Source of the DNA: Bordetella parapertussis
GTDB lineage: Bacteria; Pseudomonadota; Gammaproteobacteria; Burkholderiales; SG8-39
DNA: 64,000 nt
Assembly: GCA_945861875.1 (NCBI GenBank)
Contig: CAMAWC010000007.1
Location: 7,540 to 71,539 of the forward strand
Direction of reading: 5' to 3'
Shown in pieces: positions 39,561 to 63,139 of this stretch. The notes below the pieces were generated by a model. The model was not told the DNA's origin. It was given only the letters and a program-made list of their open reading frames with translations, and did no database searches. Made by a program: the position numbers and the translations under genes. Numbering within the stretch: position 1 is the first letter of the stretch; each line of letters opens with the position of its first letter.

Positions 39561-42500
39561 ATGGCAAAACAATTCGACCGCAAGATCACCAAGATCACCA
39601 AGGCCGCCAAGGCCGCCAAGGCCACCAAGGCCCCCAAGGCCACCAAGACCGGCGCGGCCGGCAAGTCGGCCAAAGTCCGCAAACCGGGCAAGACCACGCC
39701 GGGCGCAACTGCGCCGGCCGTGCTTCCCGTCACGGTCAGGGCCGGCAGCACGATCAAGCAGGCGCCGACGCACAGCGCCGGCGGCGGCTTTCCCATTGTC
39801 GGCATCGGTGCCTCGGCCGGCGGGCTGGAGGCGTTTGAGGCGTTTTTGTCCGGCATGCCGCAGAAAGCCGATCCGGGCATGGCCTTTGTCCTGGTGCAGC
39901 ATCTTGCGCCCGACCACAAGAGCATCCTCACCGAGCTCATACGCCACTACACCCGCATGCAGGTGTTCGAGGTCGAGGACGGCATGGTGGTGCGGCCCAA
40001 TTGCACCTACATCATTCCGCCGGGGCGCGACATGGCCGTCCTGAACGGCACGCTGCAGCTGTTCGAACCGGTGCAGCCGCGCGGCCAGCGCCTGCCGATC
40101 GATTTTCTCTTTCGCTCGCTGGCGCAAGACCAGCGCGAGCGGGCCATCGGCATTGTGCTCTCGGGCACCGGCAGTGACGGCACGCAGGGCGTGCGCCTGA
40201 TCAAGGCCGCGGGTGGCATGGTGATGGTGCAGAACACCGCCTCGGCCGCGTTTGACGGCATGCCGCGCAACGCCATCGCCACCGGCGTGGTCGATTACGA
40301 ACTGCCGCCGGCCGAGATGGCGGCGCAACTGATTGCCCACGTCAGCCACGCCTTTGGCAAGCTGCCCAGGATCGAGATCCTCACGCCTCCCAAAGTCGAG
40401 AGCGCGCTGAAGAAAATATTCATCCTGGTGCGCACCGAGACCGGTCATGATTTTTCGCTCTACAAACCGGCCACCATTCACCGGCGCATTGACCGGCGCA
40501 TGGCGCAACACCAGATCGCCACGATTGAGGGCTACGTCCGGTACCTGCAACAAACCCCGGACGAAGTGCAGGCGCTGTTTCACGACATGCTGATCGGGGT
40601 GACCAGTTTTTTTCGCGACCCCGCGGCCTTTCAGGTGCTCGCCAGTCGCGTCATTCCGCGACTTTTTGAAAACCAGCACGCCGGCGTGCCGATACGCGTC
40701 TGGGTCCCCGGCTGTTCCACCGGCGAAGAGGCCTACTCCCTGGCCATGTTGCTGGTCGAGCGCATGGAGACGCTCAAAACGCACTACACCGTGCAGATGT
40801 TCGCCACCGACATCGACGCCGCGGCCGTTGCCACGGCACGCACCGGTGTCTATCCGGCCAGCATCGCCGCCGATATCTCGCCCGAGCGCCTGGCGCGCTT
40901 TTTTACCCCCGCAGAGCAGGGCAGCGGCTACCGCATCCAAAAAGCCATACGCGACATGATGGTGTTCTCCAATCAGGACCTCGCCAGGGATCCGCCCTTC
41001 TCCCGGGTCGACCTGATCAGCTGCCGCAATTTGCTCATCTACATGGGCGCGGCACTGCAAAAAAGGATCATCCCGCTGTTTCACTACGCACTCAAGACCG
41101 ATGGCTTCCTGTTCCTTGGCACCTCCGAGGGGGTCGGTGAGTTTGAGCAGTTGTTTGGCGTGCTCGATAACAAAGCGAAACTCTTCCAGTGCAAGCCGGA
41201 CCCGCAAAGCAGGCGGCGTTTCCCGCACGCGCAATTGCCGGAGCCGCCCAGCGCGCCCGATGCGCCGACCGGGCCGCGGCACCTGGAAGGCGCCCGGCGT
41301 GCCAAAGAGTCCGGCGAGTCGCTGCGCGAAATGACCGAACGGGCGCTGCTGTCGCAGGTGGTCGCCGCCGGCGCGCTGGTCAACGGCCAGGGCGACATCC
41401 TTTACCTGTACGGGCGCACCGGCATGTTTCTTGAACCGGCCGAAGGCGAGGCGGGCCTCAACAACATCCTGAAAATGGCGCGCGAGGGCCTGCGCAGCGC
41501 ACTTGCGACCAGCCTGCACAAGGCGGTGAAAAACAAGGAAAGCGCGCTTTGCCCCGGCCTGCGCGTCAAGACAACGGTCACCACACCCTTGTCAACCTGG
41601 CCGTGCGCCCGGTCACAAGCGGCCCGGGCGCCTCGCTCGGCTCACCGCTGTATCTGGTTGTACTGGAAGAAGCACCGATCGCCGCCGCGCCCTTGCCCGC
41701 AGCGGCGGCGCTGCAAGACCCCGCCCGCGCTGCGCGCGGCAGCAGTTCCCCGGCCGTCAGCGCACGCATCAGCACGCTCACAGCCGAATTGCGGGCCAGG
41801 GATGACGAGCTGAAAAGCACCCGGGAAGAGCTCGAGAGTTCGAACGAGGAGCTCAAATCTTCCAACGAGGAAATGCAGTCGGTGAACGAGGAGATGCAAT
41901 CAACCAACGAGGAACTCGAGACCTCCAAGGAAGAACTGCAGTCGGTGAACGAGGAGCTCTCCACCGTCAACGCCGAGCTGCAGGCCAAGGTGAGCGACCT
42001 GTCGCGCGCCAACAACGACATGAACAACCTCCTCGCCGGCACCGGCATCGGCACGGTGTTTGTCGACCATCAACTGAACATCCTGCGCTTCACCCCGGCG
42101 GTGGCCGGCATCATCAACCTGATCCCGTCCGACGTCGGCCGGCCGATAACGCACATTGTCGCCAACCTGCCCGGCTACGCCAGCCTGGCTGCCGATGTGC
42201 AGGCGGTGCTCGACACGCTGGTGGCAAGGGAAATACCGGTGCAGACCATGGATCAAAGAAATTTCACCATGCGCGTCCAGCCTTATCGCACGCTCGATAA
42301 CATGATAGAGGGCGCGGTAATTTCATTCCTCGATATCACCGATTTGACAACAGCGCGCAATGAGCTGCGCGAGGCATTGGCGATAACGCAGGCTCACCTG
42401 CTCGAGGCCAATGCACTGGCGCGCCTTGCGGTGGTGCTGCGCGATGCCTCTGACGCCATCACCATGCAGGATCTGCAAGGCAAGACACTCGCCTGGAACC

Positions 42501-44973: not shown

Positions 44974-46464
44974 TCAGCACACGTCGGCCAGCGGGCCGGG
45001 TTTGCCGATGCCAAAGCCCTGCACGTAATCGACGCCCAGTTCCCCGAGTGCGCTCAGCGTGGCGTCGCTCTCGACCGACTCGGCGATGGTCAGCACGCCC
45101 ATCTTGCGCGCCGTCAGCGTAATGGCGCGTACCCGCGCGACGTCGGCGCGGTTGCCGGGCAGCCCCTGGATGATACTGCCGTCGATCTTGATGAAGTCAA
45201 ACTGCATGCCCTGCAAGGGCGCGAACGACACCCTGGTGCTGCCAAAGGCATCCAGCGTGAAGCGGCAGCCCAGCGGGCGCAGCGTGCCGATGAAGGCCTG
45301 CACCGCCGCGCGCTGCCCGATCAAATCCGGCTCGGTGATTTCAAAATTGATATTCCCGCCCGGAAATTTCTGCCGCAGCAGCTCGGCCTTGACGTACAGC
45401 GAGAAATTCGGGTCGGCCAGCGTCGCCGAGGACATGTTCACGCAAAACAACGGCAGCGGCCAGTCCGCAGCAATGCGCCGCCGTGCCAGCGCCCAGGTCA
45501 TGACGTTGCGCACCACCCAGCGGTCGATCTCGCCCATCATGCCGTAATGCTCGGCCACCGGAATAAAACCGCCCGGCGGCACCATGTTGTCCTCTTCCTG
45601 CTGCAGGCGCAGCAGGATTTCAAAGCAGCGCGGGTATGGCGCCGCAGCGCCCAGCGCGCGGATGGTCTGGCCGAACAGCACGAAATGATCCTCGCGCAGG
45701 GCCGTGACCAGCTGCTCGCGCGGGTCGGCCGAACCGAGCATCTGCCCGGTCAGCGACTCAAGGTACAGCAGTTCGTCGCCCCGGCCCGACCTTAGCACCT
45801 GGTCGCCGATGTGCGCCGGGGCCGCGGTCGCGGCCACCTCGATCGGCGCCGCGGTATTTTGTGCGATCAGCAGGTAAAACCCGGACGGGTGTTCGGTCGC
45901 GCCCGGAAACGGCAGCATGGCCACACTCAGCGGCATTTCCACGCCCTGTGCATTTCGCCAGGCCGCGTCAAAGCGCGCCTCCATGCCGCCCAGCACCGCG
46001 TCGCTGCGCGACTTCACATCCTCGTAGGCCGATGGTGCCAGCACGTCGTGCAGCAGCAGGTTATGGATCTTGCTCTTGTCACGCCCGATCCAGCCGGCAA
46101 AGGCGCGGTTGTGATAGCGGCAGTACTCGATCCGGTCGACAAACAGCAGCATCACCGGCAGCGCGTCGTGGATGAAATCGGCGCGTGCCTCGGTCATCTT
46201 GAGCGTTTCGGCCAGACGCTGGCGCCGCGTCACCTCCTCGGACAGCGCCTCCTTGGTGCGCAACCATTGTTTGGTGCGCCGCGCGATCAGCCACTGCGCG
46301 CGCGACGCCTGGCTGGCCACCGCCAGCACCGCGGCAAACAGCACGCCGCACAGGAACGCGATCCACTGCAAATCGAACAGCGTGAAATAAATCGTGGCGA
46401 GCAGCATCGCGCCAAGAATGACGGTCAGGCCGGCGGCCAGCACGTTGCGCAGTTTATTGGTCAT
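44974..46464 (-). CDS. Membrane-anchored PAS/EAL-domain protein (putative c-di-GMP phosphodiesterase)
   Basis: Track ORF 44974..46476 has a GTG start. The ATG at 46464 (MTNKLRN) is the likely start. Two TM helices, a coiled coil, a PAS-like region, then EAL (FEILLRL, NMSSATL, EITE, DAFGS, IKIDGS). Confidence 0.85.
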   Translation of the reverse strand: MTNKLRNVLAAGLTVILGAMLLATIYFTLFDLQWIAFLCGVLFAAVLAVASQASRAQWLIARRTKQWLRTKEALSEEVTRRQRLAETLKMTEARADFIHDALPVMLLFVDRIEYCRYHNRAFAGWIGRDKSKIHNLLLHDVLAPSAYEDVKSRSDAVLGGMEARFDAAWRNAQGVEMPLSVAMLPFPGATEHPSGFYLLIAQNTAAPIEVAATAAPAHIGDQVLRSGRGDELLYLESLTGQMLGSADPREQLVTALREDHFVLFGQTIRALGAAAPYPRCFEILLRLQQEEDNMVPPGGFIPVAEHYGMMGEIDRWVVRNVMTWALARRRIAADWPLPLFCVNMSSATLADPNFSLYVKAELLRQKFPGGNINFEITEPDLIGQRAAVQAFIGTLRPLGCRFTLDAFGSTRVSFAPLQGMQFDFIKIDGSIIQGLPGNRADVARVRAITLTARKMGVLTIAESVESDATLSALGELGVDYVQGFGIGKPGPLADVC

Positions 46465-46679
46465 TTTTGCCCGCACACCGACCCGCGCCGCACCAGCGGC
46501 AGGCCGGGCTCATCGAAAGACCGGGTGCCCGGCTTGATGTAGCCCACCAACTGCAATATTTCCATCGCAAATCCCCGTTTTAGATCGAGACACCGGCTGC
46601 GAAGCGCACCTGCGCGGCAAGCCTGCGCCGCCAATGCGGGCCGACGCGGGCGAAGATTAACCCGCTTCGCCCGATCCCC

Positions 46680-47084
46680 TCATGATTTTTGCCTGTGCGC
46701 CCTGAGATAGGCCATGTATTTGCTGTCCTCATGCTCGACATGGCCGGCAAGCCAAGCATACAGGTAAGACAGCACCTCCTCGCCGGAGGCCTTGTGGTGG
46801 ATCACACGGCCGATCCGGACCGACAGTTCGCCCAGCAGTTTTGAATGCACCGCCTCATGCAGCGCCAGGCCGGGATAGCCGATTTCGAACATGAAGCACT
46901 CCTCGCTGGCGAAATGAAACTCGGCATATTTCCTGATCTCATGCATGACCCTGGCAACCGCCTCCGCAGAGCCCTTTTTTTCGATCAAGCCGGCCAGCCT
47001 GGAAATGATGTTAACCAGCATGCGATGCTGGGCATCGATGAAATCGTCGCCCACTTCAAAACGCTTATCCCAGGTAAGTTCCAT
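46680..47084 (-). CDS. Bacteriohemerythrin
   Basis: 134 aa. W..RFEVGDDFIDAQHRML, HFASEE, HEAVHSKL, WLAGHVEHEDSKY give the full set of di-iron ligand motifs. Confidence 0.9.
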   Translation of the reverse strand: MELTWDKRFEVGDDFIDAQHRMLVNIISRLAGLIEKKGSAEAVARVMHEIRKYAEFHFASEECFMFEIGYPGLALHEAVHSKLLGELSVRIGRVIHHKASGEEVLSYLYAWLAGHVEHEDSKYMAYLRAHRQKS

Positions 47085-47368
47085 ACGCCCTCACTCGACA
47101 AAGTGTTCGCAACGGGACCACAAGCGCAGCATCCTGCCGAAGAGCCCCGGCGGCTTGTTTGCGCACACCGCCGCCCAGGCCATTAATACGCCATCCTCGA
47201 ACCACATATTTGACCTGAATCAAGACTGCCGGCGCCGTAAAGGCGTCAGATGGGCGGACAGGCCAGCGGAACCGGAGACTATGGCACATGTTGCCCGGCC
47301 GGGCGCGGTTCCGGGCGGCGAAGCCGATGGTCCAAACTGACCGCCTGAAATCACTTTTGGGGGATCGC

Positions 47369-48457
47369 ATGAGCGCCACCGCAACCATCCTGCTCGTCGA
47401 TGATGCGCCGGAGAATATCGTCATCCTCGCCGAGTTGCTGCGCCCGCTCTATCGCGTGCTCGCCGCCTCCTCCGGCGAGGCCGGGCTGCGTGTCGCCGCC
47501 GGCCAGCCCAAGCCCGACCTGATCCTGCTCGACGTGATGATGCCCGGCATGGATGGCTACGCGGTGCTCTCGAAACTGCAGGCCAGCCCGGCCACGCGCG
47601 ATATTCCGGTTATTTTCCTCACCGCACTGGCCGCCGCCACCGACGAAGAGCACGGCCTGCAACTGGGCGCGGCCGATTACATCACCAAGCCGATCCAGCC
47701 GACGGTGGTGCTGGCGCGCGTGCGCACCCAGCTCGAGGCCAAGCTGGCGCGCGACTGGATGGCCGACCAGAACGCCGCCCTTGAGCAGGAGGTGACGCGG
47801 CGCATGACCGAAAACGACCTTACCCAGCAGGTCAGCATACGTGCGCTGGCCCACCTTGCGGAATTGCGCGATCCGGAAACCGGCAGCCATATCCTGCGCA
47901 CCGCGGCCTTTGTGCAGCGCCTGGCCGAGGGCATGCGCCAGCACGCGTCGCTCGCCGTCACCCTGAACCAGCACTACATTGATCTGCTGGCCCGTTCGGC
48001 GCCGCTGCACGACATCGGCAAGGTCGGCATTCCCGATCACATCCTGTGCAAGGCCGGAGCGCTCACGCCCGAGGAACGGATCATCATGCAAACGCACGCC
48101 AAACTGGGCAGTGACGCCATCGCGCAGGCCGAGCGCGACATCGAGACGCCGCCGCCGTTTCTGGCCATTGCCAAGCAAATCGCCCACTGGCACCACGAAA
48201 AATGGGACGGCAGCGGCTATCCGGACGGCCTGGCCGGCGAGGCCATCCCGTTTGCCGCGCGCCTGATGGCCATTGCCGACGTGTTCGATGCGCTGATCTC
48301 ACCGCGCGTCTACAAGCCGCCGATGACCTTCGCCGAGGCGCGCACCATGATCATTGCCGGACGCGCCAAACATTTTGACCCGGACATGGTCGATGCCTTT
48401 GTCGCCGGCTTTGACGACTTTGTCGCCATCGCCCAGCGCCACCGCGAGGCGGGCTGA
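47369..48457 (+). CDS. Response regulator with HD-GYP output domain (RpfG family c-di-GMP phosphodiesterase)
   Basis: Track ORF 47288..48457. The ATG at 47369 is preceded by GGGGGA and gives MSATATILLVDDAPEN. The REC domain has LLDVMMPGMDG. HD-GYP has HDIGKVGIPD, HHEKWDGSGYPDGL. Confidence 0.9.
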   Translation: MSATATILLVDDAPENIVILAELLRPLYRVLAASSGEAGLRVAAGQPKPDLILLDVMMPGMDGYAVLSKLQASPATRDIPVIFLTALAAATDEEHGLQLGAADYITKPIQPTVVLARVRTQLEAKLARDWMADQNAALEQEVTRRMTENDLTQQVSIRALAHLAELRDPETGSHILRTAAFVQRLAEGMRQHASLAVTLNQHYIDLLARSAPLHDIGKVGIPDHILCKAGALTPEERIIMQTHAKLGSDAIAQAERDIETPPPFLAIAKQIAHWHHEKWDGSGYPDGLAGEAIPFAARLMAIADVFDALISPRVYKPPMTFAEARTMIIAGRAKHFDPDMVDAFVAGFDDFVAIAQRHREAG

Positions 48458-54493: not shown

Positions 54494-56296
54494 ATGAGCC
54501 CGTCACCTCACGCCATGCAGACCCCCGCCACCCCCCGGCTGCAGCCAGACGAGCCGGTAAAGCCTGCGCCCACCTGGCGCCCGGCAGCCGCCGTGACGCT
54601 GCCGCCGCTGCTCGTCATCGTCGTAAGCCTTGTGGGGCTGAACGTCAATTACCTGGTATTTCATGCACTGGCGGAATTGTTTTCCATCACCATCGCCTTT
54701 GCCGCGCTGGTCATTGCCACCACTTCGCATCGCTTCCAGAAAGACGATTTCCTCACTTACGTTGCCATCGCCATCGGCTGGGTTGCCATGATCGACCTGG
54801 CACACACAATGGCATTCAAGGGCATGAACCTGTTTCCCGGCGACAGCGCCAACCCGGCGACGCAACTGTGGATTGCCGCGCGCAGCCTGCAGGCGTTCGG
54901 CATGCTCAGCGCGCTGCTGTTCCTCACCCGGCGCGCATTCCCGGGCTACGTTCACGCCGGTTTCGGGCTGGCGGCGGCGCTGTTGCTGGCATCGATTGCC
55001 TTCGGCCTTTTTCCGGACGCCTACATCGATGGCAGCGGACTCACCGCGTTCAAGATCTATGCGGAGTACCTGATCATCCTGGTGCTGGCCGCCACCATCT
55101 GGGCTCTTTGGCGCAAGCGCGCGCTGCTGCCGCGGCAGGTGCATCTTGGCCTGAGCGCCGCAATAACGGCGATGATCCTGTCGGAGTTCGCCTTCACCCG
55201 TTATGTCAGCGTGTTCGCACCCGCCAACCTTGTCGGCCATGTGCTGAAAATCATCGCCTACTGGTTTATTTTTATCGTGCTGATCGAATGGGCTCTTCGC
55301 GCCCCCTATTCCCGCTTGAAGCAGGAAATGGACCGCTACCAACGCGCGGTCGACGGCGCCAATGAGGGCGTCTGGGAGTGGCTGCCGGGCAGCGGCAGCG
55401 CCTACCTCTCCCCACGCTGGAAACAGTTGCTCGGCTTCGAGGACCATGAATTGCCGGATGTGGCGAAGGAGAGCTTTTTTGACCGCATGCATCCGCAGGA
55501 CAAGGCGCGTGTTGAACTTGAACTGCGCGCACACCTTGATGGGCACAAACCCTTTGAAACGGCGTTGCGCCTGCGTCACAAAAACGATGAATACCACTGG
55601 TATGCCTCGCGCGGCCAGGCCCAGTGGGACGCCGCGGGAAAACCGCTGCGCATGTCCGGTTTCATTTCCAACATTGACGCACTCAAGGCCGTAGAGGAAG
55701 AACTCCAGCATTCCAACCTGGCGCTGCGCGAGCGCGCCAAGGAGATGGCCTGCCTGCGCGCTGTGTCGAGCGCGCTCCTCCATACGCAGGTCGATTCGGG
55801 CACGATGATCCAGTCGGCCGTTGCCTTGGTCCCGGCCGGCTGGCTTTATCCGGAAATTACCTGCGCCCGCATCGTCCTTGACGGGCGGACCTTTGTCAGC
55901 CGGGCCTTTCGCGAAACGCCATGGACCATGTCGGCCGCGGTTCCGGTCAATGGCGCGGTACGGGGCAGCGTCGAGGTGTTCTACCTCGAGGCGCGGCCCA
56001 TCCTTCACGAGGGGCCGTTCATGAAGGAAGAGCGCAATCTGATCGACACCCTTGCGCGCGAACTGGGGCTCGCTGTTGCACGCCTGGAAATCACCCTGAG
56101 AGCGCAGCAGCAAACCGCCGATCTGGCGCGGAAAAATGCGGATTTACACAAGTTCAACAAGCATGCCGTGGACCGCGAATTGCGCATGATAGAACTGAAA
56201 CAGGAAGTCAATGCCTTGTGCCTGGCGCAAGGCGAGGCTGCGCGCTATAACGTCGCGCCAGTCGCCCCTGCCGATGCGTCGGACGCCCGCTCCTGA
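54494..56296 (+). CDS. MASE3-like membrane sensor / PAS / GAF-like protein with no recognisable output domain
   Basis: 600 aa. About 7 TM helices, with VFHALAELFSITIAFAAL resembling MASE3 (assigned from memory). PAS (GVWEWLPGSGSAYLSPRWKQLLGF...YHWYASRGQAQWD). A GAF-like region, then a terminal coiled coil ending HAVDRELRMIELKQEVNALC. Confidence 0.7.
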   Translation: MSPSPHAMQTPATPRLQPDEPVKPAPTWRPAAAVTLPPLLVIVVSLVGLNVNYLVFHALAELFSITIAFAALVIATTSHRFQKDDFLTYVAIAIGWVAMIDLAHTMAFKGMNLFPGDSANPATQLWIAARSLQAFGMLSALLFLTRRAFPGYVHAGFGLAAALLLASIAFGLFPDAYIDGSGLTAFKIYAEYLIILVLAATIWALWRKRALLPRQVHLGLSAAITAMILSEFAFTRYVSVFAPANLVGHVLKIIAYWFIFIVLIEWALRAPYSRLKQEMDRYQRAVDGANEGVWEWLPGSGSAYLSPRWKQLLGFEDHELPDVAKESFFDRMHPQDKARVELELRAHLDGHKPFETALRLRHKNDEYHWYASRGQAQWDAAGKPLRMSGFISNIDALKAVEEELQHSNLALRERAKEMACLRAVSSALLHTQVDSGTMIQSAVALVPAGWLYPEITCARIVLDGRTFVSRAFRETPWTMSAAVPVNGAVRGSVEVFYLEARPILHEGPFMKEERNLIDTLARELGLAVARLEITLRAQQQTADLARKNADLHKFNKHAVDRELRMIELKQEVNALCLAQGEAARYNVAPVAPADASDARS

Positions 56297-56688
56297 CGGC
56301 AGCCTTCGAACAAGCGGAAAAAATCGCGGTCGGCGGTGAATAGATGGCGCGCGACGATGTCGTTGGCAAGGAACTCGATCAGCCCTCCCGTTGTTGCCGT
56401 GCCGGCCGCGGCGTCAGCCCGCAGCTTTTCCGCCCGTGCCAGCAATCCGGCATGGGCGCGCTTGTGCGCGGCCAGGTCCACGGTGTGGCGTTGCTCGAGC
56501 AAGGCCTCTTCGTCGGCAAAGTGCCGCACGACGTGTGCGAGCAAGCGCTCGAGTGCCGCGACAAATGCGCCCGGTGCGCTCTGCTTGTCGAATGAGGCGT
56601 CAATAAGGGTGTTGGCCAGAGCAAACAGCTCGCGGTGCGCGCCGTCAATGGTCGGCTCGCCGCATTCATAGCCAGGGGCAGTGCAAAC
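56245..56688 (-). pseudogene. Bacteriohemerythrin-like gene lacking an in-frame start (N-terminus apparently in another frame)
   Basis: Manual translation upstream of track ORF 56245..56544 continues open to the stop at 56689-56691. It reads ...GYECGEPTIDGAHRELFALANTLID...HFADEEALLEQ...HKRAHAGLL...FLANDIVARHLFTADRDFF, which contains all the hemerythrin motifs. No ATG, GTG or TTG precedes the first His ligand. An ATG-initiated ORF in a neighbouring frame (start 56858) runs into this point. Confidence 0.55.
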
Positions 56689-57057
56689 TCAAGGACCAAC
56701 TCCCGCACCGCGGGATCGGCATCGGGATTTATCGCGGGCCCGGCGGCCGGATTTGTCGTATTCAAGGTATTTGCCTGTTCTTCTGTCTCTTGCGTCGCAA
56801 TCCCCGGCGCCCTTGCGTGCACCTCACGTGCCGGCGCCTGCACGGCGGAGCTTGACACAAACCACTTGCGTGAACTTGATTTGAATCAATCCGCCGCCGC
56901 CAAAAATGCGGTCACATATAGCCAAGGGCGGTTACGGTGTCGGCGGTACGCGCACCGGCGGTGTTGCAACGTATTTACTTTACGCTGATGAGGCGAGGGC
57001 TGTGGCTTGTGGATGCACGCCAGGGCGCACAGGCAGGCACGCCTCAGGGAGAATCCA

Positions 57058-58149
57058 ATGGCTGTATTGAACGGCATCGACTTTTCACCCTACGTCGGCG
57101 ACGAGCGCAGCCCGCTTATCAGCGCGCCAGAACACTGCCTGGCCAGCTTTTTCGACCGCCCGGAGCTCGATTGCATGCTCATCGAAGTCCTTCCCGAGCA
57201 AGATTGCCTCAGGGTGCGCCCGCGCGGTTCGAACGCAAGCGAGCGGCTTTCGTTTGACGATGTGCGCTCGGTCTGTTTTCTTGATCCGGTCGTGCTGAAA
57301 GACTCGATGGAGCACCTGCGCCAGGGCGGCATCGACGTGCACGCCGTGCTGGCACGCAGTCCCTTCAGCATCACATTTCGCAACGGCCAGATTTTTTCCG
57401 GTGAACTCTGCGGCTACGGTGCGACCACCGTCGGATTGGGCCTTTACGCCGCCGCGGACAACGGTGAAATATTGCGCTACTACTTCCCCCACCCCGGGGT
57501 GGACAGCTTTGTGATTGGCGATCCGCTGGGAAAGATGCTGATCGAACACAGCGACATTAACGAAGCCGGATTGAACAAGGCGCTGGCGGCGCAGCGGGCG
57601 CTGCGCGAGCAAAAACTGGGCGACCTTCTTGCCGAACAACGCCTCATCAGCCCTGAGACACTGAACGCGGCGCTGCGCCAGCAGGCGATGCACCATCCGA
57701 CGCGCCGCATCGGCGAGGTGATGGTTGAAATGGGCGTGCTCACCCAGACGCAGCTCGCCGCCGCCCTTGAGGAACAAAAGCTGCGGCGCGACAAGCTGCT
57801 GGGCGACATCCTCATCGACATGGGCCTGCTCGACAAGGACTCGCTGCGCCAGGTGCTGGCGCACAAGCTGGGGATACCGCATGTCGCCTTGAAGGCCTTC
57901 CAGATCGATCCGGGCGTGCTTCACTCGGTGCCCTCCGACATGGAATGGCAGTACAAGGTCGTACCGCTGTACTACTTTGAAAATGCGTTGATCGTGGCGA
58001 TGGCCAATCCGATGGACCGGCGCGCCGTCAAGGCGATGTCGTATGCCATAGACAAAAAAATCATTCCCGTGCTGGCATCCCTCGATGATATCGAAAGCGC
58101 GCTGGAGAACGACCAGGCCGGCACCGGGACGCGCCCCGTCAACAGATGA
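57058..58149 (+). CDS. Protein with an unknown N-domain and a T2SSE_N/MshEN domain carrying three tandem c-di-GMP-binding-type motifs
   Basis: Track ORF 57007..58149. The ATG at 57058 is preceded by GGGAGA. Motifs are KLGDLLAEQRLISPETLNAALRQQ, RIGEVMVEMGVLTQTQLAAALEEQ and LLGDILIDMGLLDKDSLRQVLAHK, followed by KLGIPHVALKAFQIDPGVLHSVP...YKVVPLYYFENALIVAMANPMD (GspE/PilB N-terminal domain). Confidence 0.7.
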   Translation: MAVLNGIDFSPYVGDERSPLISAPEHCLASFFDRPELDCMLIEVLPEQDCLRVRPRGSNASERLSFDDVRSVCFLDPVVLKDSMEHLRQGGIDVHAVLARSPFSITFRNGQIFSGELCGYGATTVGLGLYAAADNGEILRYYFPHPGVDSFVIGDPLGKMLIEHSDINEAGLNKALAAQRALREQKLGDLLAEQRLISPETLNAALRQQAMHHPTRRIGEVMVEMGVLTQTQLAAALEEQKLRRDKLLGDILIDMGLLDKDSLRQVLAHKLGIPHVALKAFQIDPGVLHSVPSDMEWQYKVVPLYYFENALIVAMANPMDRRAVKAMSYAIDKKIIPVLASLDDIESALENDQAGTGTRPVNR

Positions 58150-59372
58150 AACACTCCAACTGGCTGCAAAGCGTCGCCAGGGCCAGCGGCACAGGGCCGC
58201 TGACGGCCGGTGCCAACCGGGAACTGGCGCAGCTCGACGAGCTGTTGTTTGGGGCCTGGAATCACGGCAAGAACATCCTGCTGGCGTGGACCCAGGCGGC
58301 AGCCGAATTGCGTTTTGTCGCCGTGCGACATTACAAGATCCTCGAGCCCTTTGGCGACAACGCCGACGCGGACAACGCGCACGCCGACCGCGACCTTATC
58401 AATAGCGTTCTCGCCGGCCCCAAATGTCTCGATGCGGCGGCCTTTGACGCCTTGTGCACGGACTTGCGCGGCGCGGCACACGTCATCCGCGCCGACGGGG
58501 CCGCATTCGGCCGGCTGTCGTCCGAACTGATCAGCGTGCTGGTCTCACGCTACGGCATATCGCTGGTACGCGAACGGGCGGTGATACTGCTCGATATCGT
58601 CGGCTTCTCGCTGCATCCGCCGCTCGAGCAGGTGGCCATGATCAACAGCCTGAGCTATTCGGCCAACTCGGCCTACCTGCAGCTGATGTCAAAGAAAATC
58701 CGCGGCAGCTTCCCGCCCCCCTTGTTTGCCCGCACCACCACCGGCGACGGCTTTTACATCTGGAACCGCGACAAAACGCTGGAGGGCAACATCGCGCTGT
58801 ACCAGCTGATGATGCTGCTCTTGACCGACAATGCGGTGGCGCAGCGCAAGGCCAAGCGCTTCCCGGTGCCGACCCTGCGCGCCGCCTTCCATGTCGGGGA
58901 GCATTACGAGTTCTTCCAGATGGAAGCGATGAGCCCGACCGCCTTCAGCTACATCGTCGGGCAGGTGACCATTGATCTGGCGCGCATCATCGACAAGGCG
59001 CTGCCCGGACAGGTGCTGCTCGGGGACTTCAACATCGCGATGCGCGATGCCGGGAGCGGCGCCCTCATCAACCAAAGCACGCCCGGCTTTATCGCCAAAA
59101 CCGCGACAACCCTGCAACGCCTGCACGGCATGTCGGTGGCGTACAACCGTGTCGCGGAAATCCGCTGCTACATTACCGGCGAGCGCGCAGCGGACGGCGA
59201 ATTCACGGTCGAGCGCTACAGCATCCTGGACAAGCACGGCCGCACGCATGCGGCCTATAACGCCAAGATCAACATCCACCTGCAGCGCGGCAAACCGGTC
59301 TTTCTCGGACTGCAGCACAGGGACTTGCGTCATCCGGCCGCAGGCGGCCACGGTTGGCCCGCGGACCGATGA
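58146..59372 (+). CDS. Divergent class III nucleotidyl cyclase homology domain protein with an unknown N-terminal region of about 140 aa
   Basis: 408 aa. ATGA overlap with the MshEN gene. CHD landmarks are AVILLDIVGFS (metal Asp 1), TTGDGFYIW (metal Asp 2), LRAAFHVGEHYEF, and IVGQVTIDLARIIDKALPGQVLLGD (the Asn position is Asp; Arg is kept). Confidence 0.6.
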   Translation: MKHSNWLQSVARASGTGPLTAGANRELAQLDELLFGAWNHGKNILLAWTQAAAELRFVAVRHYKILEPFGDNADADNAHADRDLINSVLAGPKCLDAAAFDALCTDLRGAAHVIRADGAAFGRLSSELISVLVSRYGISLVRERAVILLDIVGFSLHPPLEQVAMINSLSYSANSAYLQLMSKKIRGSFPPPLFARTTTGDGFYIWNRDKTLEGNIALYQLMMLLLTDNAVAQRKAKRFPVPTLRAAFHVGEHYEFFQMEAMSPTAFSYIVGQVTIDLARIIDKALPGQVLLGDFNIAMRDAGSGALINQSTPGFIAKTATTLQRLHGMSVAYNRVAEIRCYITGERAADGEFTVERYSILDKHGRTHAAYNAKINIHLQRGKPVFLGLQHRDLRHPAAGGHGWPADR

Positions 59373-60877: not shown

Positions 60878-60889
60878 ATCCGGGTGACA

Positions 60890-61215
60890 CTGATCAAGTC
60901 CGTCATTCCCGCGAAGCTTGTCCTCGAATGCCTTAATCGGGGAGCGGGAATCCACCTTGGGAAGCTCTGATTAAGTCCGTCATTCCCGCGAAAGCGGGAA
61001 TCCACCTTGGGAAACTCTGATTAAGTCCGTCATTCCCGCGAAGCTTGTCCTCGAATGCCTTAATCGGGGAGCGGGAATCCACCTTGACCTAAAGCGTGTA
61101 TTCATTGAGTCAAAATGGATTCCCGCTTGGCCGTTCCTCGAAACTTCGTCTCGCTGCGCGAGACTCGCTTTCGCGGGAATGACGATTTATGGACTTAATC
61201 AGAGCTTCCCTAAGC
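60890..61215. repeat. Family A repeat array: three tandem left arms (two with expanded loops) plus one right arm with an expanded loop
   Basis: (C)TGAT(C/T)AAGTCCGTCATTCCCGCG... occurs three times, starting near 60890, 60966 and 61017. It is closed by TGGATTCCCGC-TTGGCCGTTCCTCGAAACTTCGTCTCGCTGCGCGAGACTCGCTT-TCGCGGGAATGACGATTTATGGACTTAATCAGAGCTTCCCTAAG. Confidence 0.85.
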
Positions 61216-61672
61216 AAGCGCCATTCGCGCCAGACCGGCATGGCGCGCCAGGCCTGTCCTGGCGCTGTCCTTTTTTGCACCCGCCGGCGAAGGATCCGCA
61301 TTGGCGTTACACGAGCTTACGGAACCGCCACCTTGCCAGTGCAAACGCCGGACGATTCGCCGACAAAGCGCAGCGGCATCCCTTCTAGTATTGCTGCGTG
61401 CAGTCAGGCGCGATTCATTTCGGTCCGGGGCAGCGCTGGCGCGCCTGCCGCCCGGCGCGCCTGCCGCCCGGCGCGCGCATCACTCCGGTGCGCGCATCAC
61501 CTCGAGCGCTGTCCTTGGCCCGATGACCCTCGGCGTGCGCGTGGCCGTGGCGCAACCGGCCGATCGCCGCTGACAAACCGTTACAAAAGCCAGACGAGAA
61601 GCCGCACGAAAGGCCGCCGTTTCTTCGTTATGGTGTCCTCTGACACGAAGTTAACCATGCATTGACCAGGAT

Positions 61673-63139
61673 TTGCAGCCCATGATCTCACCAAATAGCG
61701 CGCAACTTTCGCCCTCCGCCTTGGCCGCACGCGACGGCGGCGGCCTTGCGTACCAGGCAGAGGTGCGGCCGCCGCGGCCTGTCGCGGGCTTCAATCTGAG
61801 CCACCGCTTTGCCGTGCTCAGCCTGCTGGTCATCGCCTTTGTCAGCCTGGCATCGTCGGCCGTCCTGTCGAAATTCCTTGCCAAGACGATGTTGCACCGT
61901 GATGCCGAGGTGTCGATGCAGTTCGTGCAGAACTTCACGCAGCAACAAAACGCAGAGGGCTATTTCAGGCACCAGTCCGGTCGTAGCGCCTCGGACCGCA
62001 GCATTGAAAATTATTTTTCGCACATCAGTGCCATGCCCGATGTGCTGCGGGCGCAGGTCTACGATGTCACCGGCGCCGTGCTCTGGTCGAGCAACGCCGC
62101 TTCAATCGACCAGACGTTTGCCAGCAACCCCGAATTGGACAGGGCCTTGGTCGGGGAACTCGCGGTCGAGGCCGCCATCCTCGAGTCGCGCGAATATATC
62201 AAGCCCGAACACGTCTTTTCCGCGGTTCCGGAAAAGCAGTTTGTCGAATATTACCTTCCGGTATGGGACAACACGCAGACCAGGGTGGTCGGCGTGGTTG
62301 AATTGTACAAATCACCCGATGCGCTGTTCCAGGCAATCCGCAGCGGACTGCAGCTGATATGGCTTTGCTCGTTTTGCGGCGCCATCCTGATGTACGCCGT
62401 CTTGTTCTGGCTGGTGAGGCGGGGGCAGGGAATCATCCGCCAGCAGCAGCTGCGCATCGCCAGCAGCGAGGGCTTTGCCGCGGTTGGCGAGGTTGCCGCC
62501 TCGGTGGCGCACAATATCCGCAATCCGCTTGCGGCAATCCGCTCCTCGGCCGAATTAATGGCCATCGGCGGGCAGGACCGCTCCGGCGAATTCGCCCATG
62601 ACATCATGGCCGAGGTGGACCGGCTCGAATCCTGGATCCGCAACCTGCTCAGTTACGCCCACGCCGGTACGCGTGAGCCGGGGCGCATCAGCGCCAACGA
62701 CTTGCTGCGCGGCCTGATCGATGGCATGGGCGATGACTTTGCCCGGCGCGGCGTCACTGTGGCCTTGCGCCTCGAGCCGACGGTGCCGCCGGTTGTCGTC
62801 GATGCGCTGATGCTCGATCAGATTGTGCGCACCCTGGTCGCCAATGCACTCGATGCCATGCCCGCTGGCGGGGCGCTTACCATCAGCAGCAGCCGCGCCG
62901 GTGCCGGCGGCATCCAAATCAGCGTGGCCGACACCGGCGTGGGCATCCCCGCCGAACAGCTCAAGCGCGCGTTCCTCGCCCCGCGCACCACTAAAAAACA
63001 CGGCCTGGGCATCGGCCTGCCGCTTGTCGGCCGCACCCTCGAAAGAATGGGCGGCGGCATCCACGTACGCAGCACCCACGGGCGAGGCACCAGCGTCGCC
63101 ATCACACTTCCATTCACCATCCCAGGAAAGCAATCATGA
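61673..63139 (+). CDS. Sensor histidine kinase (NtrB/AtoS-like partner of the downstream sigma54 activator)
   Basis: 488 aa. Two TM helices bracket a sensor domain of about 170 aa. H-box [18 protein letters not shown]. HATPase_c (DTGVGIP, GLGIGL). Confidence 0.88.

What the first reader, a model, noticed from the sequence alone, without database searches (positions are those of the whole stretch)
57058..59372. Translationally coupled pair: a triple MshEN-motif (c-di-GMP receptor type) protein and a divergent class III cyclase-homology protein
Gene 1 has an unassigned N-domain of about 170 aa. It is followed by three consecutive copies of a 24-residue pattern resembling the MshEN c-di-GMP binding motif RLGxx(L/V/I)(L/V/I)xxG(L/V/I)(L/V/I)xxxxLxxxLxxQ. 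The middle copy, RIGEVMVEMGVLTQTQLAAALEEQ, is a near-perfect fit. The rest of a GspE/PilB N-terminal domain follows, but there is no secretion ATPase. Gene 2 overlaps it by ATGA. It carries the landmark residues of a class III nucleotidyl cyclase catalytic domain: DIVGFS, TGDGF, and a VTIDLAR segment where canonical enzymes have VNxAxR. The position that usually selects the purine (Lys/Glu upstream of GD) appears to be Thr in my by-eye alignment. The 140-aa N-terminal region also has no obvious family. A cyclic-dinucleotide receptor module wired to a non-canonical cyclase-like enzyme suggests a second-messenger relay or a cyclase with an unusual product. The pair sits in a neighbourhood of EAL, HD-GYP and hemerythrin genes. 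I do not recognise this pairing as a described system.
Basis: partly seen in the sequence, partly recalled or inferred. Interest (0 to 1): 0.7.

Follow-up and report, generated by a model that had tools for sequence, protein, structure and literature searches.

The report
c-di-GMP receptor plus divergent cyclase-fold protein
Two overlapping genes encode a stand-alone receptor for the bacterial signal c-di-GMP and a member of a large, unnamed protein family with the fold and metal-binding core of a nucleotide cyclase, so the second protein is a good candidate for an uncharacterised signalling enzyme, although the two genes occur together only in this lineage.

Summary
Gene 1 (57058-58149) has four MshEN-type 24-residue motifs, not three. 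They form two complete 53-residue c-di-GMP-binding modules. Two small beta-barrels precede them, an MshEN C-subdomain follows, and there is no ATPase. Gene 2 (58146-59372) overlaps gene 1 by ATGA. It matches no Pfam, NCBIfam, PADLOC or PDB sequence profile. Its AlphaFold model nevertheless matches only class III cyclase catalytic domains among the top 50 PDB hits.

Gene 2's family is large: about 500 clusters at 50% identity, found in 406 species genomes. Across 200 members both metal aspartates, an Arg and a DKH turn are invariant. The canonical base-selecting Lys/Asp and the Asn are replaced.

The exact pair is not conserved: 0 of 160 family loci elsewhere carry gene 1. Gene 1's rare family, however, sits directly upstream of a canonical adenylate cyclase-hemerythrin fusion in four other relatives. 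Gene 2's family is fused to REC and to REC-EAL, and 15 of 160 loci have a GGDEF, EAL or HD-GYP gene next door.

Best reading: a c-di-GMP-gated cyclase-like enzyme with an unknown product. MshEN-cyclase fusions were already noted in 2016, so this is a new variant of a known kind.

The parts
57047..57052 (+). Shine-Dalgarno-like GGGAGA, 5 nt upstream of the gene 1 ATG
   Evidence: Read directly from the sequence.
57058..58149 (+). Gene 1: 363-aa stand-alone MshEN-type c-di-GMP receptor candidate, with no ATPase domain
   Evidence: ORF. Pfam MshEN and NCBIfam c-di-GMP_motif. The exact sequence is present in public MAG data as a called 363-aa gene.
57130..57516 (+). Gene 1 residues 25-153: two small all-beta barrels with no family assignment
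   Evidence: AF2 model, pLDDT mostly 75-93 here. No Pfam or NCBIfam hit when scanned alone. Only weak Foldseek similarity to tandem Tudor/Sm-like barrels, E 0.008-0.08.
57523..57684 (+). Gene 1 residues 156-209: c-di-GMP-binding module A (motif copies 1 and 2)
   Evidence: NF053729, 46.7 bits on its own against a cut-off of 38. Motif positions G3, L6, L17, A20 and Q24 are invariant in 12 family members. Copy 1 has Pro for Arg1 and copy 2 has Arg for Gly10.
57706..57867 (+). Gene 1 residues 217-270: c-di-GMP-binding module B (motif copies 3 and 4)
   Evidence: NF053729, 56.6 bits on its own. Copy 3 fits the published relaxed motif.
57868..58122 (+). Gene 1 residues 271-355: C-terminal subdomain of the MshEN/GSPII domain
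   Evidence: Pfam PF05157, residues 271-355, E 1.2e-14. Foldseek to MshE-N with c-di-GMP (5htl, E 1.2e-8) and to PilF GSPII domains.
58146..58149 (+). ATGA overlap: gene 2 start codon overlaps gene 1 stop codon
   Evidence: Read directly from the sequence.
58146..59372 (+). Gene 2: 408-aa member of a large unannotated family with a class III cyclase-like fold
   Evidence: ORF. More than 1,233 homologous 90%-identity clusters and 494 clusters at 50% identity. No profile hit. AF2 plus Foldseek.
58146..58550 (+). Gene 2 residues 1-135: conserved N-terminal alpha/beta domain of unknown family. It travels with the cyclase-like domain in all relatives, including the fusion proteins.
   Evidence: Alignment. 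Secondary structure of the model. Profile matches in fusion proteins start at profile positions 20-38.
58551..59330 (+). Gene 2 residues 136-395: cyclase-homology-like catalytic domain with an insert at about 296-333. Key residues are D150, D201, R280, D362-K363-H364, T197 and Y269.
   Evidence: The strand and helix order beta1-alpha1-beta2-beta3-alpha2-beta4-alpha matches the class III cyclase domain. Foldseek. Invariance in 200 members and in distant and fused members. hhalign places D150 and G200-D201 on the canonical metal Asp and GD motif, E 0.015.

Best explanation
The two genes form one translationally coupled unit in a signalling-rich region of a betaproteobacterial genome.

Gene 1 is a soluble c-di-GMP receptor. 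It has two small beta-barrels, two complete 53-residue MshEN_N nucleotide-binding modules (so possibly two c-di-GMP sites), and the MshEN C-subdomain. It carries no enzymatic output of its own.

Gene 2 belongs to a widespread, strongly conserved, unnamed family: an N-terminal alpha/beta domain followed by a divergent class III cyclase-homology domain. That domain keeps the two-metal catalytic core (Asp150, Asp201), the transition-state Arg280 and a Lys-containing beta-hairpin (Asp362-Lys363-His364). It has replaced the canonical base-recognition pair (Lys to Thr/Ser197, Asp/Thr/Cys to Tyr269) and the ribose-orienting Asn (Thr275/Ile276).

The most likely mechanism is that gene 2 is an active, dimeric nucleotidyl cyclase or a closely related NTP-using enzyme with non-canonical substrate or product specificity. 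In this lineage gene 1 binds it and gates its activity according to the c-di-GMP level, relaying c-di-GMP into a second nucleotide signal.

Shown here: the domain identities, the fold, the residue conservation, the gene overlap, and the contexts of relatives. Inferred: c-di-GMP binding by gene 1, catalysis by gene 2, physical contact between the two, and the direction of regulation.
For: Gene 1:
- MshEN and c-di-GMP-motif profiles match, and each module is above the curated cut-off.
- The fold matches c-di-GMP-bound MshE-N and PilF GSPII.
- The motif core positions are invariant in the family.

Gene 2:
- All top 50 Foldseek PDB hits are class III cyclase domains (E 2e-6 to 1.6e-4, target-normalised TM up to 0.64) for a model with pTM 0.83.
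- D150, T199-G-D201-G, T275, R280, Q289, D362-K363-H364 and N372 are invariant in 200 members down to 43% identity, and in distant or fused members.

Coupling:
- The ATGA overlap, with no separate Shine-Dalgarno for gene 2.
- The gene 1 relatives P0149, P0153 and P0154 are followed at 27-30 bp by a canonical Guanylate_cyc-Hemerythrin protein. P0152 is overlapped by 4 bp by one. Its closest solved relative is P. aeruginosa CyaB, E 3.6e-26. The receptor family is therefore found with two different kinds of cyclase-domain protein.

Links between gene 2's family and c-di-GMP or two-component signalling:
- Fusions REC-family, family-REC and REC-EAL-family, the latter with intact EAL and DDFGTG motifs.
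- 15 of 160 loci have a GGDEF, EAL or HD-GYP gene within 500 bp.
- GGDEF and HD_5 genes lie upstream of the 61%-identical relative P0003.

MshEN-cyclase domain fusions are on record (PMC5013675).
Against: - The pair exists only in this species-level lineage: 0 of 160 loci with a gene 2 relative carry a gene 1 relative. No neighbour is conserved across the family. Gene 2's family clearly works without gene 1.
- Three gene 1 relatives have no cyclase neighbour. Their neighbours are GGDEF/EAL genes, acetate kinase and PFK. The four relatives with a cyclase-hemerythrin neighbour may form a single clade.
- No sequence profile links gene 2 to PF00211. hhalign reaches only E 0.015, and only over beta1 to beta3.
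- Three of the six canonical class III catalytic residues are not canonical, and the residue mapping beyond the two Asp rests on secondary-structure-guided alignment by eye.
- In module A of gene 1, copy 1 lacks Arg1 and copy 2 lacks Gly10.
- No complex prediction could be run.
Confidence: 0.45

Rival explanations
1. The adjacency is a recent accident specific to this lineage. Gene 2 is a self-sufficient signalling enzyme regulated by its own N-terminal domain, as in the hundreds of genomes where it stands alone. Gene 1 is a c-di-GMP receptor with a different target. The two are merely co-transcribed.
For: 0 of 160 loci elsewhere carry gene 1. Gene 2's family has no conserved neighbour. Gene 1 relatives also sit next to unrelated genes: acetate kinase, PFK and CoA-transferase.
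Against: The 4-bp overlap without a separate ribosome-binding site implies stoichiometric co-expression. Gene 1's rare family is found immediately upstream of a cyclase-domain gene in 5 of the 8 lineages examined, with two unrelated kinds of cyclase-domain protein. Gene 2's family has its own links to c-di-GMP enzymes.
Confidence: 0.25
2. Gene 2 is not a cyclase. Its cyclase fold serves as a nucleotide-binding or regulatory pseudo-enzyme. It could be a heterodimer partner for a canonical cyclase domain, or a sensor of c-di-GMP, pGpG or GTP.
For: The canonical Lys, Asp and Asn are all replaced. In 20 of 80 genomes (the Roseateles/Paucibacter/Pelomonas clade) the family member is directly followed, and in several cases overlapped by 4 bp, by a canonical Guanylate_cyc-AAA_16-TPR protein. 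From general knowledge, class III cyclases act as dimers, and in mammalian adenylyl cyclase and soluble guanylyl cyclase one half-site is degenerate.
Against: Both metal aspartates, the Arg and the Lys hairpin are invariant across the whole family, including fusion proteins. That pattern is typical of active enzymes, whereas degenerate half-sites usually lose the aspartates. Most genomes carry the gene with no canonical cyclase nearby.
Confidence: 0.17
3. Gene 2 is a very divergent GGDEF-type diguanylate cyclase, with TGDGF standing in for GGDEF. The pair would then be a c-di-GMP synthase with a product-sensing partner.
For: GGDEF and class III cyclase domains share the palm fold. The hairpin ARTTTGDGF resembles ARxGGDEF. 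The family is fused to EAL, the usual partner of GGDEF.
Against: No GGDEF structure is among the top 50 Foldseek hits. hhalign against a GGDEF alignment gives only a spurious 25-column match (E 0.32), while canonical cyclase domains against GGDEF give 3.5e-5 in the same test. The beta1 motif is D-x-x-G-F-S, the cyclase type, not D-x-D-x-F-K-x-x-N-D. No Pfam GGDEF hit in any of 35 members.
Confidence: 0.06
4. Gene 1 is a decayed remnant of a PilB/MshE-type secretion ATPase gene that lost its ATPase half and has no function of its own.
For: Proteins that combine PatA_N-like, MshEN and T2SSE ATPase domains exist (P0164, P0165 and the gene upstream in L006).
Against: ATPase-less proteins of 355-387 aa with the same architecture are conserved at 37-43% identity in at least eight lineages, with intact motifs and a conserved C-terminus. 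In the window the reading frame is intact, has a good ribosome-binding site, and ends exactly on the next gene's start codon.
Confidence: 0.03

Closest known systems
MshEN (GSPII) c-di-GMP-binding domain of V. cholerae MshE, T. thermophilus PilF and E. coli NfrB
   Same: Tandem 24-residue motifs form a 53-residue four-helix module, followed by the alpha/beta C-subdomain. Both the profile match and the fold match are significant.
   Different: There is no ATPase or glycosyltransferase output. There are two complete modules in a row, but only one C-subdomain. A two-barrel N-terminal domain of unknown family precedes them. Several motif copies deviate at Arg1 or Gly10.
MshEN fused to adenylate/guanylate cyclase domains, an architecture listed by Wang et al. 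2016 (PMC5013675)
   Same: A c-di-GMP-binding MshEN module is associated with a class III cyclase-type domain, which implies c-di-GMP to cNMP cross-talk.
   Different: Here the association is split over two overlapping genes, and the cyclase partner is a family that Pfam Guanylate_cyc does not recognise. In the papers I could search, neither form has been characterised experimentally.
Canonical bacterial class III adenylate cyclases (P. aeruginosa CyaB 3r5g, Spirulina CyaC 1wc0, M. tuberculosis Rv1625c 4p2f)
   Same: Same fold. The D-x-x-G-F-[ST] motif is at the end of beta1, G-D in the beta2-beta3 hairpin, an Arg in the following helix, and a Lys-bearing C-terminal hairpin.
   Different: No profile-level sequence similarity. 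Thr/Ser replaces the substrate Lys, Tyr replaces the Asp/Thr, and Thr-Ile replaces the Asn. There is an insert of about 40 residues and an obligatory N-terminal domain of 135 residues. The gene 1 relatives' cyclase-hemerythrin partners, by contrast, are canonical Lys...Thr adenylate cyclases.
Class III cyclases with non-canonical specificity residues: M. tuberculosis Rv0386 (Gln/Asn) and Pycsar pyrimidine cyclases (cited from my own knowledge, not tested here)
   Same: They set a precedent that cyclase domains keeping the metal site but changing the base-contacting residues can remain active with altered nucleotide specificity.
   Different: Those proteins are still recognised by cyclase or defence profiles. 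Gene 2 is hit by neither Pfam nor PADLOC, and no effector gene accompanies it.
GGDEF diguanylate cyclases
   Same: They belong to the same palm-fold superfamily, have an acidic hairpin motif, and are frequently fused to REC and EAL.
   Different: No GGDEF profile or HMM-HMM similarity, and a cyclase-type beta1 motif.

Membership tests
MshEN / GSPII c-di-GMP receptor domain (PF05157; NCBIfam NF053729) | A 53-residue module made of two 24-residue motifs | tested here: met
   Residues 156-209 score 46.7 bits and 217-270 score 56.6 bits against NF053729 (cut-off 38), each scanned alone. There are four core-pattern matches against 0.023 expected per shuffle.
MshEN / GSPII c-di-GMP receptor domain (PF05157; NCBIfam NF053729) | Key motif residues: [RK]-h-G at positions 1-3, Leu6, Gly10, Leu17, Leu21 and Gln24 (Wang 2016) | tested here: inconclusive
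   Copy 3 has all of them. Copy 1 has Pro1, Ser10 and Asp11. Copy 2 has Arg10. Copy 4 has Leu1 and Lys24. G3, L6, L17 and Q24 are invariant in the family for copies 1-3. Only copy 3 fits the published relaxed pattern.
MshEN / GSPII c-di-GMP receptor domain (PF05157; NCBIfam NF053729) | The alpha/beta C-subdomain follows the helical module | tested here: met
   Pfam MshEN at residues 271-355, E 1.2e-14. Foldseek 5htl, E 1.2e-8.
MshEN / GSPII c-di-GMP receptor domain (PF05157; NCBIfam NF053729) | Binds c-di-GMP | not testable with these tools
   Needs DRaCALA, ITC or a co-crystal structure.
Class III nucleotidyl cyclase catalytic domain (PF00211) | Match to the family's sequence profile | tested here: not met
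   No Pfam or NCBIfam hit for gene 2, or for any of 35 relatives at E up to 10. No hit by PDB sequence search with a single sequence or a profile. hhalign gives E 0.17 and 0.015.
Class III nucleotidyl cyclase catalytic domain (PF00211) | The cyclase-domain palm fold | tested here: met
   AF2 model with pLDDT 83 and pTM 0.83. All top 50 Foldseek PDB hits are class III cyclase domains, probability 1.0, E down to 2e-6, target-normalised TM 0.5-0.64.
Class III nucleotidyl cyclase catalytic domain (PF00211) | Two metal-binding aspartates, at the end of beta1 and in the beta2-beta3 hairpin | tested here: met
   D150 (LLDIVGFS) and D201 (TGDGF) lie at those positions in the model. hhalign aligns them with the canonical Asp residues. 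Both are invariant in 200 of 200 members.
Class III nucleotidyl cyclase catalytic domain (PF00211) | Substrate-specifying pair (Lys plus Asp/Thr for ATP; Glu plus Cys for GTP) | tested here: not met
   Position D201-4 is Thr161/Ser37/Phe2 of 200. The position three residues before the conserved Gly272 is Tyr in all 200 aligned members, and Phe or Leu in some distant ones. The second assignment rests on alignment by eye.
Class III nucleotidyl cyclase catalytic domain (PF00211) | Transition-state Asn and Arg (the VNxAxR helix) | tested here: inconclusive
Arg280 is invariant. No coordinates were available for a superposition.
Class III nucleotidyl cyclase catalytic domain (PF00211) | Dimeric enzyme that converts an NTP to a cyclic NMP | not testable with these tools
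   Needs enzymology with LC-MS and a measurement of oligomeric state.
GGDEF diguanylate cyclase (PF00990) | GG[DE]EF hairpin and a profile match | tested here: not met
   The motif is TGDGF. No Pfam hit. hhalign against GGDEF gives E 0.32 with an irrelevant alignment.
PATAN / PatA_N domain (PF14332, formerly DUF4388) | Profile match over the N-terminal domain of gene 1 | tested here: inconclusive
   The whole protein gives 32.6 bits (cut-off 25), but 109 residues (102-210) map onto only profile positions 33-75. The precomputed hits are marked faint. Residues 1-154 scanned alone give no hit.
Anti-phage cyclase systems (Pycsar, CBASS and others in PADLOC) | Match to a defence-system cyclase or effector model | tested here: not met
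   No PADLOC hit for either protein.

The most novel reading that the evidence does not exclude
Gene 2's family is a previously unrecognised branch of the cyclase/GGDEF palm superfamily. It is about 500 clusters strong, covered by no Pfam or NCBIfam model, and found in Burkholderiales, Rhodocyclales, Steroidobacteraceae and Rhodospirillales. On this reading it makes a nucleotide messenger other than cAMP, cGMP or c-di-GMP, or it processes a product of c-di-GMP turnover such as pGpG. It is embedded in the c-di-GMP network through REC-EAL fusions, GGDEF/EAL neighbours and, in this genome, a dedicated two-site MshEN receptor that relays c-di-GMP levels into the new signal.
Probability: 0.15. Interest if true: 0.85.

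Novelty: new variant of a known kind. Interest (0 to 1): 0.58.

Why it matters
Gene 2's family is invisible to the current domain libraries. It is nonetheless widespread in environmental Proteobacteria, unusually well conserved (about 59% mean column identity across classes), and keeps a two-metal catalytic core in a cyclase fold with new base-contacting residues. That profile fits an enzyme whose product has not been looked for.

Its fusions to REC and active-looking EAL domains, together with the operon found here, give concrete, testable hypotheses about how c-di-GMP signalling feeds into a second nucleotide signal. In the reviews and papers I could search, direct control of a class III cyclase by a c-di-GMP receptor protein has been predicted from domain architectures but not demonstrated.

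The gene 1 family offers two natural test systems. One has a canonical adenylate cyclase-hemerythrin partner and the other has the divergent partner.

Tried and rejected
- Sequence-profile routes to a cyclase assignment all failed or were marginal: Pfam and NCBIfam on gene 2 and on 35 relatives, phmmer and hmmsearch against PDB sequences, BLASTP against a canonical cyclase, and hhalign with two alignments. The assignment rests on the predicted fold.
- Defence-system membership was rejected.
- An apparent fusion of a gene 2 relative with Guanylate_cyc-AAA_16-TPR in L070 was an artefact of an out-of-frame long ORF in high-GC DNA.
- A weak 'cyclase' hit in L051 turned out to be a GGDEF-EAL protein.
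- A search for a decayed cyclase-hemerythrin gene next to gene 1 found none. tblastn with the L097 protein hit only the separate hemerythrin at 46701-47114.
- A metagenome scan with the N-terminal half of gene 1 failed twice: no usable conserved stretch in the first alignment, and no confirmed hit with the second.
- A profile search with the same N-terminal alignment found only 7 proteins and no fusion architectures.
- Promoter and terminator scans around the pair were at or below chance level.
- I could not predict the complex, could not superpose the model on a cyclase structure because no coordinates are returned, and could not fold-search the N-terminal domain of gene 2 on its own because the structure jobs were exhausted.


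Full report
**1. What is in the sequence**

ORF listing and direct reading confirm two same-strand genes. Gene 1 is 57058..58149 (363 aa) and has a GGGAGA ribosome-binding site 5 nt upstream of its ATG. Gene 2 is 58146..59372 (408 aa). Its ATG overlaps the TGA of gene 1 (ATGA), and no Shine-Dalgarno lies at a usable distance. Both exact proteins occur in public assemblies of one betaproteobacterial MAG lineage, and the gene order is the same on every contig found.

The surrounding window is rich in signalling genes:
- a CheB-CheR fusion
- PAS proteins and histidine kinases
- PAS-EAL at 44974-46476(-)
- hemerythrin at 46701-47090(-)
- REC-HD-GYP at 47288-48457
- a 1,902-aa hybrid kinase
- MASE3-PAS at 54494-56296
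- a hemerythrin-like ORF at 56245-56670(-)
- downstream of the pair, an MFS_3 transporter and a histidine kinase

**2. Gene 1**

Pfam finds the MshEN domain at residues 271-355 (E 1.2e-14). NCBIfam finds the MshE-related c-di-GMP-binding motif domain (E 4e-24, two stretches). Partial matches to NfrB and PilB cover only their MshEN regions, and there is no T2SSE ATPase.

There are four, at 156-179, 186-209, 217-240 and 247-270, spaced 30-31 residues apart. A core pattern is expected 0.023 times per shuffled sequence. Scanned separately, residues 150-213 and 213-275 each exceed the curated NCBIfam cut-off (46.7 and 56.6 bits against 38). The protein therefore carries two complete 53-residue modules of the kind that binds one c-di-GMP in V. 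cholerae MshE (PMC5013675).

Module B is the better match, and its first motif is the only copy that fits the published relaxed pattern. Module A deviates: copy 1 has Pro for Arg1 and copy 2 has Arg for Gly10. Even so, the G3, L6, L17, A20 and Q24 positions of copies 1-3 are invariant in the 12-member family alignment.

The AF2 model (pLDDT 77.5) shows two small all-beta barrels (residues 25-78 and 94-153), eight helices and the alpha/beta C-subdomain. Foldseek matches the C-terminal half to c-di-GMP-bound MshE-N (5htl, E 1.2e-8), PilF GSPII domains and PilB-N. The barrels match only weakly to tandem Tudor/Sm-like folds. The Pfam PatA_N/DUF4388 hit is odd in geometry and disappears when the N-terminal 154 residues are scanned alone, so I leave that domain unassigned.

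**3. Gene 2**

No Pfam, NCBIfam or PADLOC model matches it, and no PDB sequence matches it by phmmer or by a family profile. None of 35 relatives hits Guanylate_cyc even at E up to 10.

The family is nevertheless large and tight. More than 1,233 90%-identity clusters score below E 0.001. There are 494 clusters at 50% identity in a 1.84-billion-protein library. Matches occur in 406 of the GTDB species-representative genomes, mostly Burkholderiales (Roseateles, Paucibacter, Pelomonas and many MAGs), Rhodocyclales, Steroidobacteraceae and Rhodospirillales. Mean column identity is 59% in a 35-member alignment.

With that alignment AF2 gives pLDDT 83 and pTM 0.83. All 50 listed Foldseek PDB matches are class III adenylyl or guanylyl cyclase catalytic domains, with probability 1.0, E 2e-6 to 1.6e-4, and target-normalised TM 0.5-0.64.

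The secondary-structure order from residue 137 onward is that of a cyclase domain:
- beta1, ending in LLD150IVGFS
- alpha1
- the beta2-beta3 hairpin, ARTTTGD201GFYIW
- alpha2
- beta4, LRAAFHVGEHYEF
- a helix carrying GQVTIDLAR280
- after an insert of about 40 residues, a beta-hairpin with D362-K363-H364-G at its turn, where canonical enzymes have KGKG

An HMM-HMM comparison of a 201-member family alignment with 12 canonical cyclase domains is only marginal (E 0.015), but it places D150 and G200-D201 on the canonical metal Asp and GD. The same family alignment against GGDEF gives nothing relevant (E 0.32), whereas canonical cyclase against GGDEF scores 3.5e-5 in the same set-up. At the sequence level, then, the family is further from both than they are from each other.

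In 200 members down to 43% identity, D150, T199, D201, G202, Y204, W206, Y269, G272, T275, R280, Q289, D362, K363, H364, N372 and K374 are invariant. The canonical Lys position is Thr, Ser or Phe. In the most distant and fused members the same core survives, while R196 and Y269 vary.

I conclude that the metal site, the Arg and the Lys hairpin are retained. The canonical base-selecting pair and the Asn are not. The mapping of the last two rests on alignment by eye.

**4. Is the pair conserved?**

No. tblastn with gene 1 against 80 genome loci and 80 JGI metagenome loci carrying a gene 2 relative found no adjacent gene 1 relative. Of the metagenome loci, 52 had more than 1.2 kb of sequence upstream. 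Clustering of flanking ORFs shows only lineage-level synteny. The nearest non-self relative examined (P0003, 61% identity) has GGDEF and HD_5 genes upstream instead.

Gene 1's own family is rare: about a dozen 90%-identity clusters in 5.8 billion. The contexts of its relatives are:
- P0149, P0153, P0154: followed at 27-30 bp by a 464-473-aa Guanylate_cyc-Hemerythrin protein.
- P0152: overlapped by 4 bp by the N-terminus of the same kind of protein.
- P0150: lies after two GGDEF genes, a REC-EAL gene and a small ORF.
- P0155: lies after acetate kinase.
- P0156: lies between RmuC and PFK.

The cyclase-hemerythrin partner is a canonical Lys...Thr adenylate cyclase, closest to P. aeruginosa CyaB (E 3.6e-26). 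The conserved theme is therefore on the receptor's side: this MshEN protein family repeatedly sits immediately upstream of a cyclase-domain gene. In the window's lineage, a member of the divergent family takes that place.

**5. Independent links between gene 2's family and c-di-GMP or two-component signalling**

Length outliers among the family's representatives are fusions:
- REC at the N-terminus: P0282.
- REC at the C-terminus: P0295, P0298, P0306, P0321.
- REC-EAL-family: P0322 and P0330, with intact EAL and DDFGTG motifs.
- An EAL fragment followed by the family: P0320.

I have no genome-wide background for these MAGs, so this is suggestive only.

In the Roseateles/Paucibacter/Pelomonas clade (20 of 80 genomes), a canonical Guanylate_cyc-AAA_16-TPR protein follows directly, in several genomes with a 4-bp overlap.

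**6. Mechanism**

The best-supported reading (confidence 0.45) has three parts.
- Gene 2 is an active dimeric nucleotidyl cyclase or closely related enzyme. Its base pocket differs from those of known adenylate and guanylate cyclases.
- Gene 1 is a dedicated c-di-GMP receptor with one or two binding sites.
- The two are made in fixed proportion by translational coupling, and the receptor gates the enzyme.

Domain identities, fold, conservation and contexts are shown here. Ligand binding, catalysis, protein-protein contact and the sign of regulation are inferred.

The main rival (0.25) is that the adjacency is a lineage-specific accident. A pseudo-enzyme or heterodimer-partner role (0.17) is suggested by the Roseateles arrangement and the lost canonical residues, but the invariant aspartates argue against it. 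A divergent GGDEF (0.06) and a decayed ATPase gene (0.03) are unlikely.

**7. Comparison with what is known, and novelty**

Gene 1 meets the tested defining features of an MshEN receptor, and its novelty is architectural: doubled module, barrel N-domain, no output.

Gene 2 has the fold and the metal site of a class III cyclase. It fails the family's sequence-profile test and lacks the canonical specificity residues. I therefore describe it as cyclase-homology-like rather than as a member of PF00211.

The concept of MshEN coupled to a cyclase is already in the literature as a domain architecture (PMC5013675). I found no experimental study of it, and a 2024 review of c-di-GMP/cAMP cross-regulation does not mention MshEN at all.

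Overall this is a new variant of a known kind. Its real value lies in the unannotated cyclase-fold family.

Noticed in passing
window 56245-56670 (-): A hemerythrin-like ORF (Pfam PF01814, E 4.7e-10, nearly full-length, with all His/Glu/Asp ligand motifs) lies divergent from gene 1. There is no ATG, GTG or TTG between the upstream in-frame TGA and the conserved Y-x-x-G-x-x-x-I-D-x-x-H start of the domain. An ATG lies one frame off. It could be a frameshifted pseudogene, a non-canonical start or a sequencing error. The gene callers did not call it in the sister contigs. It is intriguing because gene 1 relatives are paired with cyclase-hemerythrin fusions.
   Followed up: partly
L055-L092 (e.g. 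L057 5001-6203 and 6200-9307; L058, L060, L063): In the Roseateles/Paucibacter/Pelomonas clade (20 of 80 genomes), the gene 2 relative is directly followed by a canonical Guanylate_cyc-AAA_16-TPR protein of about 1,000 aa. From memory this is the Rv0386-like architecture. In several genomes the two overlap by 4 bp. This may indicate a heterodimer of cyclase domains.
   Followed up: partly
P0322, P0330 (about 800 aa), P0320, and L119 3-347/347-1552: These are REC-EAL-(gene 2 family) fusion proteins with active-looking EAL motifs. In L119 an EAL ORF abuts the family gene with no gap and may be another such fusion.
   Followed up: partly
L008/L009 and L102-L104: Gene 1 relatives without a cyclase neighbour sit tightly (12-23 bp, or a 4-bp overlap) next to acetate kinase, 6-phosphofructokinase and RmuC. 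It is unexplained whether these ATP-using enzymes are alternative targets of the receptor.
   Followed up: no
window 58695-58720 (gene 2 residues about 184-192): The window protein, P0002 (87% identity) and P0004 (64%) share a 5-residue insertion (RGSFPPPL, RGSYPLPS and RVRFNRPT) in the alpha1-beta2 loop that all other family members lack. It may be a feature linked to the gene 1 partnership. The context of P0004 could not be retrieved because the look-ups were exhausted.
   Followed up: no
window 60880-61670 compared with L010 12753-15405: Downstream of the MFS_3 gene the window differs from a sister contig of the same species. L010 carries a LapD-like GGDEF-EAL gene and a LapG-like Peptidase_C93 gene. 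The window has about 800 bp with overlapping minus-strand ORFs that begin MDSR(F/S)...RGNDG, which look like translated repeat elements, followed by a histidine kinase at 61673-63139.
   Followed up: no
L047 67-900 (-): A 278-aa protein with weak similarity to the N-terminal half of gene 1 (26% identity over residues 24-228; Pfam DUF6982, E 5e-4) lies 4 kb upstream of a gene 2 relative, on the opposite strand. It is the only such case among 160 loci.
   Followed up: partly
window 39561-41813 (+): A single 750-aa ORF combines CheB methylesterase and CheR methyltransferase domains. It is followed by PAS and PAS-histidine-kinase genes.
   Followed up: no
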